From Octopus vulgaris (Eukaryota): a stretch of DNA of 64,000 bases. The stretch lies in contig OX597814.1 in assembly GCA_951406725.2 (NCBI GenBank), positions 22,010,001-22,074,000 of the forward strand. The letters are read 5' to 3'. A program made the position numbers and the translations under genes. Below, in pieces: positions 6,119-27,389 of this stretch (the first letter of the stretch is position 1; each line of letters begins with the position of its first letter). A model generated the notes under the pieces. It saw nothing but the letters and a program-made list of their open reading frames with translations. It ran no database searches and was not told the DNA's origin.

Positions 6119-6185
6119 GCAAGTTGATTTGGAGGAATAATGGTCCGGGCAAAGTTGCCAAATCCTGTTGTGACGCCATACGCAA
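6119..6185 (-). CDS. HAL: Histidine ammonia-lyase coding exon 4 (67 nt, phase 1 to 2)
   Basis: tag|TTGCGTATGGCGTCACAACAGGATTTGGC...CAACTTGC|gtaagt encodes (V)AYGVTTGFGNFARTIIPPNQLA, containing the YG.TTGFG active-site-loop motif of MIO ammonia-lyases. Confidence 0.95.
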
Positions 6186-10721: not shown

Positions 10722-10794
10722 CTTGATTCTTGGCAACAATGTCATTCAGTAGATCACGTGATTTCCTTACTCTTTCCAAGGCATCATCTGAAAT
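10722..10794 (-). CDS. HAL: Histidine ammonia-lyase coding exon 3 (73 nt, phase 0 to 1)
   Basis: ttctgttcag|ATTTCAGAT...AATCAAG|gtaact encodes ISDDALERVRKSRDLLNDIVAKNQ(V), similar to vertebrate HAL LTPTAEKRVQKSREVIDSIIKEKTV (recalled). Phases join both neighbouring exons. Confidence 0.93.
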
Positions 10795-12129: not shown

Positions 12130-12204
12130 CTTGAGAAGGTGTTCACCTTTTCCCAATTGAAGCAGGGCGCTTGTCGTCAGTGAATAACCATCGAGAGTTA
12201 TGTA
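12130..12204 (-). CDS. HAL: Histidine ammonia-lyase coding exon 2 (75 nt, phase 0 to 0)
   Basis: ttttag|TACATAACTCTCGATGGT...CTCAAG|gttagt encodes YITLDGYSLTTSALLQLGKGEHLLK, similar to HAL YIELDGDRLTTEDLVNLGKGRYKIK (recalled). Confidence 0.93.
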
Positions 12205-25171: not shown

Positions 25172-25189
25172 CTCTTTTGCAGTGTTCAT
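25172..25189 (-). CDS. HAL: HAL first coding segment MNTAKE within the 22-nt exon 25172-25193
   Basis: aaacag|AGAA ATG AAC ACT GCA AAA GAG|gtaaga. The phase-0 end joins YITLDG. An in-frame TAA lies upstream in the previous exon. Confidence 0.75.
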
Positions 25190-25193
25190 TTCT

Positions 25194-25253
25194 CTGTTTA
25201 AATTAATAAAGGAAAATTGTTCGGGAAATTACCATTGGGAATTACAGAGAAAC

Positions 25254-25349
<96 letters not shown>

Positions 25350-25605
25350 GTGACAGAAAGAGAGGGAGAGCAAGTAGATTTTTATACAATTATGCTTGGT
25401 AAAGAGAAAATTTTTTTTTAATTTTTTAAAAAGTAAAGATCAACAACGTATCGGATTTACCACTTTCTGATATTCATTGATGTAAGTTACAATTTTCTTT
25501 CATTTAGTTGCTTTTCCTTTTCTTTTTTTTTTTTTTTTTTTTTGCTTTTTTCTTTAACGATATTGAAGTATATTAAATGAATCATACAATTGATGTAAAG
25601 GATAC
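25194..25605 (-). other. HAL: U12-type (minor spliceosome) GT-AG intron in the HAL 5' UTR
   Basis: 5' splice site GTATCCTTT. Branch-like TTTTCCTTTAT ~13 nt from the AG. No polypyrimidine tract next to the AG. Confidence 0.75.
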
Positions 25606-25658
25606 ATTTCTTTTTCTTAGCACAAGTTTTTCAGACTAGTCAATGTTACCGTCTACTC
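25606..25658 (-). other. HAL: HAL 5' UTR exon (53 nt)
   Basis: Strong acceptor (poly-T then cag) and a U12 donor. Stops occur in the frame of the downstream CDS. Confidence 0.7.
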
Positions 25659-26261
25659 CTGAAAAAAAAAAACAATAGCGTGCTAAAATAATTTTCATTA
25701 ATTATGTTGGCATTTTTTGATTAATTATTTTCAGTTTTAGGGTGGGGATTAATAATCATGCTGGTACGTTTGATATACATAAAATAGAAAAGAGTTGTTC
25801 GATCTTCCCTAAGAAAAGAATTTTAAACCATTAGCTAATGTAAAAATGAAAAATTATAGTGAAATATATGCCTTGAATTCACTGTTAACTTGTTTGTCTG
25901 GTATCTAGATTAAAGTTAAGACCCCTACGATTAAAGTTAAGACCCCCGCCAAAGTCAACTTTCCCTTTTCTCATCTTGGAGCACGATAAAGATCAAGTAA
26001 GTACTGTTGAAGTATCACAGTGGAATCAATTAAATATGTCTCCAGAAATTATATTCTGATCCCGAAATTCGTTCGAATTGCCTCGAAGTAGATTAGCAAT
26101 TTTGTTTCATCTTCTTTCTAAATAGTATAAATAAGTAGAAGAAAACTATGCAAGCAACAACTATATTAAAAAATATATATAATAGACACTGATAAAATAA
26201 CTTAATTATATACAACAGTTAGAGAAAAAAAAAGGGAAATATATGTGCATAAATATATTAC

Positions 26262-26520
26262 CTACCGTTTCAAAATTCCTGTAGTTCAATATTTTCTTTA
26301 AAATAACCAAACACAGTTTAGAATTTTCTGATTTCTTTTAAATTTCGATAATTGCTTGGAATCTTCTTTGCGAGACAATGTTGCTTTCTGCTATCTTTAT
26401 AAAGTACAGAATAAGTTTCAGTTTGCTTCGTTTGACTGACCTGTCTTATATGCAAAACCTCCTTATCAACAGCTTCCTTTTAAAGATCTGACCTCAACCC
26501 TATTGACGAATGAGATAACA
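26262..26520 (-). promoter_or_regulatory. Candidate HAL first exon and promoter
   Basis: Donor candidates at 26261 and 26265. TATA-like catataag near 26450. GATA motifs (tgataag, agataa) and AGGTCA half-sites nearby. Motif-level evidence only. Confidence 0.3.
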
Positions 26521-27389
26521 GGAAAAGTAGCAATAAATAATTTGCCTTTTTTACGCAGCCCAAAACACACTTCCAAGAATTTTGCGTTAATTTTTTTCGT
26601 CGAAAAATATTTGCGTTATAAATTTAACAATGAATAAATCGTGTTGTCAGGTCTTGTCGAATAATCAATGGTTTCTATAGCTACTTGGCTGCGTGAATAA
26701 ATTAACATTGAGGGCGGGTAAAATTTTTTGAGTATTTCACCAACCTTAGAGATATTTGGACTTTAGCACACACATCTATTGTTGTTGTTTAACCCATGGT
26801 TTGCCTGATCGAGCAAACTTATGATCCAAGGCGTTCTAGTCGTTACCATGTTGTCTTTAATTCAAACATTTAAGACTATATTATCAAGTGCCCCACTCAA
26901 AAAATAAATTGGGGGAGATAATAGAGTAAGATTTAAGGAAAAATCGGCTCCTATTTCCAGCAGGCCTACGAATACTGTAGGGACCTCACCCATTTGCTTT
27001 TTACAATAGTCTCATATTTTACAGAAAGTGGAATTGAGGGCGACGCGATTTGTCTTTGTTAATTACTTAAACTAGATAAACTACCACTTCTTCCCGCCTA
27101 ACCTTTTGGGTAATATAAATACAATTTAATTAAAATGTAATATATTGAATATTGTATGCAAAATAAATCTTAATTGAAATTTTCTTCTTATTTAGTCTAT
27201 GAAAACAAAAACCTAGCTGTACTTTTTAGTGACTCTCAAAGAAAAGAAGAGACAATTTCGAAAGATTAAAATTTATTTCTCCAGTTAATTCATACATAGG
27301 AGATGCATTTGTAAAATGCACAACATTTTTGTTTCTCTTCAGGTGGTTGCCTTGCATGATTTACGATGGTATTCAACATTCACCCATGT

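What the first reader, a model, noticed from the sequence alone, without database searches (positions are those of the whole stretch)
25172..26270. HAL seems to have converted its N-terminal-domain exons into 5' UTR while keeping a U12-type intron
Seen: a 412-nt intron with a GTATCCTTT donor and TTCCTTTAT branch-like site, upstream of a 22-nt exon carrying the ATG, and in-frame stops in the 53-nt exon before it. Recalled, to verify: vertebrate HAL has 61, 28, 75, 73 and 67-nt exons and an N-terminal Par3/HAL ubiquitin-like domain. The 75, 73 and 67-nt exons here match that series, and the 22-nt exon has the same 1+3n structure as the 28-nt one. Read in phase 1, the 53-nt exon starts (G)VDGN, resembling VIEGD. 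Inference: the domain was lost by exon decay, giving a catalytic-domain-only HAL. A minor intron kept in non-coding sequence could act as a rate-limiting regulatory element.
Basis: partly seen in the sequence, partly recalled or inferred. Interest (0 to 1): 0.72.

Follow-up and report, generated by a model that had tools for sequence, protein, structure and literature searches.

The report
Octopus histidase lost domain, kept intron
The octopus gene for the histidine-degrading enzyme HAL encodes a shortened protein without the front domain that other molluscs have, and a decayed, likely once-coding exon and a spliced intron with minor-spliceosome signals now lie in its untranslated leader; the intron likely persists because it still has to be cut out, and a special regulatory role is untested.

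Summary
Transcript-like contigs from 5 of 6 RNA-guess runs (5 studies) remove the 412-nt GTATCCTTT intron exactly. They join a non-coding first exon, the 53-nt exon and the 22-nt AUG exon to the catalytic exons. The leader has no AUG. The gene encodes an intact 527-aa HAL. Octopus and Argonauta HAL lack PF12053, while their sister lineage and other molluscs keep it, and no full-length paralog was found. The intron is likely ancestral: vertebrate and annelid gene models point to a U12-type donor at the same phase-2 site. Three corrections: (1) the 53-nt exon is a decayed linker exon, and no relic of the domain-coding exon was detected; (2) the gene keeps a second U12-type intron in coding sequence; (3) persistence needs no regulatory selection, since retention would add five upstream AUGs. 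Octopod HAL also lost the C-terminal Ser-Pro tail, as did an independent short fish paralog clade. Verdict: a real lineage-specific truncation that left an ancient minor intron in a 5' UTR; regulation is untested.

The parts
26266..26477 (-). Exon 1, non-coding, AUG-free. The 5' end is not fixed (contigs reach 26309-26477; a low-depth piece reaches 26680). No detectable homology to the lost domain.
   Evidence: tables 5, 8
25659..26265 (-). Intron 1, 607 nt, GTAGGT...CAG, major-type with a pyrimidine tract; inferred equivalent of the ancestral phase-1 intron after the domain exon
   Evidence: intron read-through proteins P0235/P0239/P0240 and P0174
25606..25658 (-). Exon 2, 53 nt: decayed former coding (linker) exon, 61 nt inferred in the sister lineage; stops in all three frames; now 5' UTR
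25194..25605 (-). 412-nt GT-AG intron with U12-type signals, in the 5' UTR, at former phase 2; contains an (AGAT)24 repeat at 25254-25349
25597..25605 (-). U12-type donor GTATCCTTT; with the exon's last two bases it forms an AUG in unspliced RNA
25206..25214 (-). Branch-site-like TTCCTTTAT, putative branch A at 25207 (-14); complementary to this genome's U12 snRNA
25172..25193 (-). Exon 3, 22-nt micro-exon (1+21) with the first AUG at 25189-25187, where the public 527-533 aa Octopus HAL models start
12130..12204 (-). Exon 4, 75 nt, first exon of the catalytic core
   Evidence: loose ends
10722..10794 (-). Exon 5, 73 nt, coding
6119..6185 (-). Exon 6, 67 nt, coding. The gene continues for 16 more exons outside the window, to G000:C1:21978270.

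Best explanation
Octopus HAL is an intact 527-residue catalytic core that starts at an AUG in a former linker micro-exon, so the spliced 412-nt intron with U12-type signals, likely inherited from the bilaterian ancestor, now lies in the 5' UTR, where it likely persists because it must still be removed. Shown: the splice pattern, the AUG-free leader, the open 527-codon frame, the absence of PF12053 in octopod HAL and its presence in the sister lineage, and residual homology of the 53-nt exon to the linker exon. Inferred: (1) on the stem of Octopus plus Argonauta a new start arose in the micro-exon and the old start and domain exon were lost; whether that exon was replaced or decayed beyond recognition is unresolved; (2) the linker exon then decayed freely (stops, net 8 nt shorter) but kept its splice sites, because retaining the intron would put five AUGs upstream of the main one; (3) the intron stayed U12-type because only precise deletion or conversion to the major type could change that; (4) the minor spliceosome excises it.
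For: Both joints in 5 of 6 RNA-guess runs, 5 studies. Leader has 0 AUG against 4.0-5.8 expected in 269 nt (P0 0.002-0.005; for the shortest 101-nt leader P0 0.07-0.13), while the flanking introns hold 8 and 4. The 20-exon reading frame is stop-free, all GT-AG, and 526 of 527 residues match P0121; active-site motifs are present. Pfam: no PF12053 in P0121 or P0003, present in P0126 and P0127, which are sister to octopod HAL (100/98 on the core-only tree). 53-nt exon against the sister linker: 5'-anchored p 0.0002-0.058 over 20 tests, 19 of 20 below 0.05; whole-exon frameshift-tolerant alignment reached by 0 of 500 shuffles for P0127 and 8 of 500 for P0126. The anchor is independent of this test: P0235/P0239/P0240 read into the intron at that residue. 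Position: 5 of 173 models read Y-P-F/C/A at this site, which is what a GTATCCTT donor gives in phase 2 (4 vertebrates, 1 annelid). Human HAL has a 107-nt minor intron with an acceptor variant 6 nt away, and P0179 lacks two residues at this site. U11 and U12 genes are present. Retention creates 5 upstream AUGs. A second U12-type intron is kept in the coding region.
Against: No test shows which spliceosome cuts this GT-AG intron; the branch site differs from the recalled consensus at 2 of 9 bases, and U12 duplex energy discriminates weakly (this intron ranks 1 of 21, the second U12-type intron only 4 of 21). Orthology rests on protein read-throughs and coordinates, not on aligned DNA. The 3'-anchored test of the 53-nt exon is weak (p 0.015-0.42). 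Larue and Roy report that minor introns are lost or converted somewhat more often than major ones, so persistence is not guaranteed under neutrality. A diverged Octopus run (X13) shows 0 of 52 changes in exon 2 against 15 of 325 upstream, a non-significant hint of extra constraint (Fisher p 0.13 for 1 of 97 UTR bases). P0126 and P0127 are unnamed; calling them squid or cuttlefish is inference from the tree only. Contigs drop rare isoforms.
Confidence: 0.7

Rival explanations
1. The UTR minor intron is kept by selection as a regulatory switch. Slow or stress-dependent minor splicing would leave a leader with five upstream AUGs (one formed at the donor itself) and lower HAL output.
For: Retention makes 5 upstream AUGs in an otherwise AUG-free leader. 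The donor is a perfect match and the U12 duplex is the strongest of 21 introns. Minor introns are proposed as switches set by U6atac level (PMC3728624 abstract). The human 107-nt intron is marked responsive in the MDS column (PMC11347168 supplement).
Against: A second U12-type intron in the coding region already ties the gene to the minor spliceosome. Four AUGs in a 412-nt AT-rich intron is ordinary (8 in the 607-nt major intron). No contig bridged a retained U12 junction by the tool's 31-base rule. [quoted passage not shown]
Confidence: 0.2
2. One reading: exon 1 is itself the old domain-coding exon, decayed in place into UTR. This concerns exon 1 only and is compatible with the rest of the best explanation.
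For: Exon 1 (at least 212 nt) sits where the 232-nt coding part of the domain exon would be, directly before the linker exon. A six-residue local match to P0126 exists in exon 1.
Against: That match is not above shuffles (16 of 40 reach it). Donor-anchored tests give p 0.67-0.93. The best profile score in exon 1 is 19.5, against a background of up to 34.4 and 107-176 for 9 intact distant domains.
Confidence: 0.4
3. The truncation is only one isoform or an annotation artefact; a full-length HAL is made from another upstream exon or a paralog.
For: Short isoform or partial models exist in lineages with the full-length gene (P0162, P0237, P0238). Contigs cannot show rare isoforms, and the genome searches use a filtered first look (stricter).
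Against: PF12053 hits only two Par3-like exons on C9 (2 of 2 matches). P0127 gives 13 of 13 matches at this one locus, none to the N-terminus. P0235 gives nothing below E 0.49. No intact domain exon lies in the 38 kb upstream. The 53-nt exon is closed in all frames. Four species' models are short.
Confidence: 0.04

Closest known systems
Vertebrate HAL, a two-minor-intron gene (human chr12:95994826-95994932, 107 nt, and chr12:95980864-95983910; mouse 105 and 2564 nt; PMC6717393 Additional file 9)
   Same: Two introns with U12-type donors. The 5' one sits before the micro-exon that precedes the catalytic exons; the octopus 3' one follows the D-N-P motif, which likely matches the second vertebrate intron.
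   Different: In vertebrates both lie in coding sequence and the protein has PF12053 and a Ser-Pro tail. Here the first lies in the 5' UTR and both appendages are gone.
GT-AG U12-type introns in untranslated regions
   Same: Known to occur and counted by intronIC pipelines (PMC7367187; PMC10639083).
   Different: PMC10639083 says almost nothing is known about them. This one has a traceable origin: it became a UTR intron because the start codon moved downstream.
Core-only histidine ammonia-lyases with solved structures (PDB 6v6h, 538 aa; 1gkm, 509 aa)
   Same: They match octopus HAL over residues 8-516 and 13-503, so a core-only protein is an ordinary HAL architecture.
   Different: The octopod form is a secondary loss from an animal HAL that had the domain (tree).
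Short HAL-like proteins of catfish and pike (P0230, P0241, P0243, P0101)
   Same: They lack both the N-terminal extension and the C-terminal Ser-Pro tail (PF12053 checked and absent in P0230 and P0101).
   Different: An independent, likely paralogous clade beside the full-length vertebrate clade; these are gene models, not checked against RNA here. The octopus gene is the only HAL found in its genome.

Membership tests
U12-type (minor) GT-AG intron | Extended 5' splice site RTATCCTTT (consensus recalled; same motif in the mouse Hal row of PMC6717393) | tested here: met
   7 of 7 bases at +3..+9; 2 of 21 introns of the gene match
U12-type (minor) GT-AG intron | Branch site complementary to U12 snRNA, close to the 3' splice site, with no pyrimidine tract | tested here: met
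   TTCCTTTAT with A at -14; lowest duplex energy of 21 introns (-10.8 kcal/mol) with this genome's U12; two departures from the recalled consensus
U12-type (minor) GT-AG intron | Excised exactly at these sites | tested here: met
   5 of 6 RNA-guess runs
U12-type (minor) GT-AG intron | Host has minor-spliceosome snRNAs | tested here: met
   U12 E 1e-23, U11 E 4e-15; U4atac and U6atac not searched
U12-type (minor) GT-AG intron | intronIC or PWM score above threshold | not tested
   No trained matrices were on hand
U12-type (minor) GT-AG intron | Splicing depends on the minor spliceosome | not testable with these tools
   Needs knock-down or lariat mapping
Histidine ammonia-lyase (PF00221, MIO enzyme) | Full lyase domain, Ala-Ser-Gly triad and active-site motifs | tested here: met
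   PF00221 1-465 of 466; 8 of 8 motif patterns found (patterns recalled); alignment to 1gkm and 6v6h
Histidine ammonia-lyase (PF00221, MIO enzyme) | Deaminates histidine | not testable with these tools
   No assay
Animal-type HAL with Par3/HAL N-terminal domain | PF12053 at the N-terminus | tested here: not met
   Absent in P0121 and P0003, present in P0126, P0127, P0170; the domain's kinship to the Par3 N-terminus is seen (4i6p, 3zee, 2ns5)
Animal-type HAL with Par3/HAL N-terminal domain | C-terminal tail with a Ser/Thr-Pro-Thr/Ser motif (defined here from 130 of 132 long forms) | tested here: not met
   Absent in 4 of 4 octopod rows; stop codon seen in the last exon
Decayed coding exon turned UTR | Homology to the orthologous coding exon: 53-nt exon | tested here: met
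   profile test p 0.0007-0.006
Decayed coding exon turned UTR | Homology to the orthologous coding exon: exon 1 against the domain | tested here: not met
   sensitivity to heavily decayed relics is low

The most novel reading that the evidence does not exclude
Animal HAL carries a two-part regulatory module (Par3-like N-terminal domain plus Ser-Pro/basic C-terminal tail) that is discarded as a unit, at least twice. Octopods replaced this protein-level control with RNA-level control: the stranded minor intron acts as an upstream-AUG switch in the 5' UTR.
Probability: 0.15. Interest if true: 0.7.

Novelty: new variant of a known kind. Interest (0 to 1): 0.42.

Why it matters
It gives a UTR minor intron with a known origin and a built-in control: the same gene's coding minor intron, and the coding ortholog in the sister lineage. 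That makes it possible to test whether minor introns persist for regulation or by default, in a class about which one survey says almost nothing is known (PMC10639083). It also supplies a natural deletion mutant for HAL's N-terminal domain and tail, for which my searches found no described function. The short protein itself is already in public annotations.

Tried and rejected
Free frameshift-tolerant alignment of the leader to 7 N-termini: none clearly above shuffles (best 3 of 40). A by-eye match at the end of exon 1 was rejected after anchored tests. The CCT exon context in PMC6717393 file 1 was dropped as evidence for this intron, since it fits the Pro before the second minor intron equally. 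X3's 116-nt contig over the U12 donor has only 27 exon bases and does not count as bridging. Run search: no RNA holder listed on record, RNA status is a guess; X16 laid nothing. Complex prediction of the sister N-terminal domain with its tail: no answer, score 0.02, alignments not used. Naming the sister lineage failed: only the two unnamed proteins were returned, and the representatives search gave no names. One search misplaced the 73-nt exon by 2 nt and one boundary by 3 nt; both are corrected. One search printed nothing (pattern error). HAL was not found in the PMC6865273 supplements; PMC8848931 supplements could not be read and might give intron ranks. bioRxiv supplements are closed. Literature searches listed no paper on cephalopod HAL truncation or on the function of HAL's N-terminal domain; most subscription papers are not searched. 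Earlier scan notes held nothing on this locus.

Full report
Observation. On the minus strand the 412-nt intron 25605-25194 starts GTATCCTTT and has TTCCTTTAT with its A at -14. It lies between a 53-nt exon closed in all frames and a 22-nt exon with ATG at 25189. Contigs from X1, X3, X9 and X13, X14 skip it exactly; these are 5 of 6 RNA-guess runs laid, from 5 studies. The same contigs skip a 607-nt intron to a first exon ending at 26266, and continue from 25172 into the exon at 12204. X19 and X20 cross the 607-nt intron unspliced. The runs' RNA status is a guess, but exact GT-AG skipping implies spliced RNA.

The gene. Twenty coding exons (four in the window, sixteen in G000:C1 below it) give a stop-free 527-codon frame. 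It matches an Octopus sinensis record at 526 of 527 residues, and all 19 intervening introns are GT-AG. Three Octopus records start at this same Met, so the short protein is already annotated. The lyase domain and active-site motifs are complete. The spliced leader has no AUG. Shuffles expect 4-6 in 269 nt (P0 at most 0.005), though the shortest observed leader is not significant. This fits a working 5' UTR.

Domain loss. PF12053 is absent from Octopus and Argonauta HAL and present in P0126 and P0127. These two unnamed proteins are sister to octopod HAL within molluscs; that they are squid or cuttlefish is my inference from the tree. In the genome, PF12053 hits only two Par3-like exons on C9. 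P0127 hits only this locus (13 of 13 matches; a stricter first look was used), and P0235 finds nothing below E 0.49. A profile scan of the 38 kb upstream peaks at 34, against 107-176 for nine intact distant domains. The loss maps to the stem of Octopus plus Argonauta.

Which exons decayed. Sister-lineage proteins that read into the intron fix the phase-1 boundary, so the orthologous exon would be 61 nt. Anchored there, the 53-nt exon resembles it: 19 of 20 tests give p below 0.05, and the whole-exon alignment is reached by 0 of 500 and 8 of 500 shuffles. The 3'-anchored signal is weak. The AlphaFold model of P0127 has a folded domain at about residues 2-79, a low-confidence linker at about 81-100 and the core from 107. 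The 53-nt exon is therefore mostly the linker exon, and the new start leaves the core whole. Exon 1 shows no detectable homology to the domain; decay in place and replacement remain open. Argonauta's model starts two residues further upstream than Octopus relative to the core, so the start may have shifted or arisen twice; that model is unchecked.

The intron's age. HAL is listed with two minor introns in human and mouse (PMC6717393, supplement rows seen). The human 107-nt one has an acceptor variant 6 nt away (PMC11347168, supplement rows seen), and P0179 lacks two residues at the site before the micro-exon. Five of 173 models read Y-P-F/C/A there, as a phase-2 read-through of a GTATCCTT donor would: four vertebrates and the annelid Ridgeia. 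This points to an ancestral bilaterian minor intron, but it is inference from proteins, not aligned DNA. Octopus also keeps a second U12-type intron after D-N-P (1657 nt), and two gastropod models read V-S-F there. U11 and U12 genes are in the genome.

Mechanism. Most likely a new start in the micro-exon made the upstream coding sequence dispensable and the linker exon decayed. Its splice sites stayed under selection because retaining the intron adds five upstream AUGs, one of them formed at the donor. [quoted passage not shown] The switch model (PMC3728624, abstract seen) is possible but untested, and the coding minor intron would already provide it. A diverged Octopus run shows few changes in the UTR exons (1 of 97 against 15 of 325 upstream; p 0.13), which is not significant.

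Beyond the finding. 130 of 132 HALs with a long N-terminus keep a C-terminal Ser/Thr-Pro-Thr/Ser motif. Of 20 short rows, 12 lack it (4 octopod, 7 catfish or pike, 1 sponge) and 8 keep it; those 8 look like isoforms or partial models, which is my inference. Three of the 155 rows were of intermediate length and not counted. The fish short forms are an independent clade, so the two ends were lost together at least twice; two events are a lead, not proof. The octopod core evolves faster than the sister's in 11 of 16 non-independent relative-rate tests, and in none of the 4 with the mammal outgroup. A general octopod rate effect was not controlled.

Literature. Passages were also seen in PMC7367187, PMC11347168 and PMC10228655. 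[quoted passage not shown] Nine searches (listings only) showed no report of this truncation; the library lacks most subscription papers.

Verdict. A real and well-supported case of lineage-specific N-terminal truncation that leaves an ancient minor intron in a 5' UTR. The component processes are known kinds; the worked example and the paired loss of both termini appear undescribed. Interest 0.42.

Noticed in passing
G000:C1:21994730-21993074 (L007): Second U12-type intron of HAL (1657 nt, GTATCCTTT, branch-like TTCCTTGAC), phase 0 after D-N-P; gastropod models P0023 and P0154 read into the same donor.
   Followed up: yes
G000:C1:21978338-21978270 (L009): The last exon stops early: octopod HAL lacks the C-terminal Ser-Pro/basic tail, as do short catfish and pike HAL-like proteins that also lack the N-terminal extension.
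   Followed up: partly
window 26270: Runs X13, X14, X19 and X20 have G where the window's plus strand has T; X1 and X9 match the window over exon 1. It is a variant 5 nt from the end of exon 1.
   Followed up: no
window 26430-26889: Low-depth contigs (X1, X13) extend upstream of the main exon-1 ends: a longer 5' end, upstream transcription or DNA carry-over.
   Followed up: no
G000:C1, intron ending at 21994812 (L007): The major-type intron 14 has a TTCCTTAAA branch-like motif near its acceptor, next to the second U12-type intron.
   Followed up: no
P0121 residues about 279-284: Octopus and Argonauta share changes just before the Q-D-A-Y motif (His to Glu, Arg to Lys) at columns invariant in six other HALs; 12 such shared changes in all.
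   Followed up: partly
P0235, P0237-P0240 (cluster of P0127): Sister-lineage contigs give domain-only 94-95 aa and core-only 554 aa products, consistent with retention of the intron after the domain exon or an alternative start.
   Followed up: partly
G000:C9:91383607-91383735 and 91318616-91318831 (L004, L005): Two exons of a Par3-like N-terminal domain, 65 kb apart; the only PF12053 hits in the genome.
   Followed up: partly
P0122: This public model has a different last 17 residues from the reading frame built here and from P0121.
   Followed up: no
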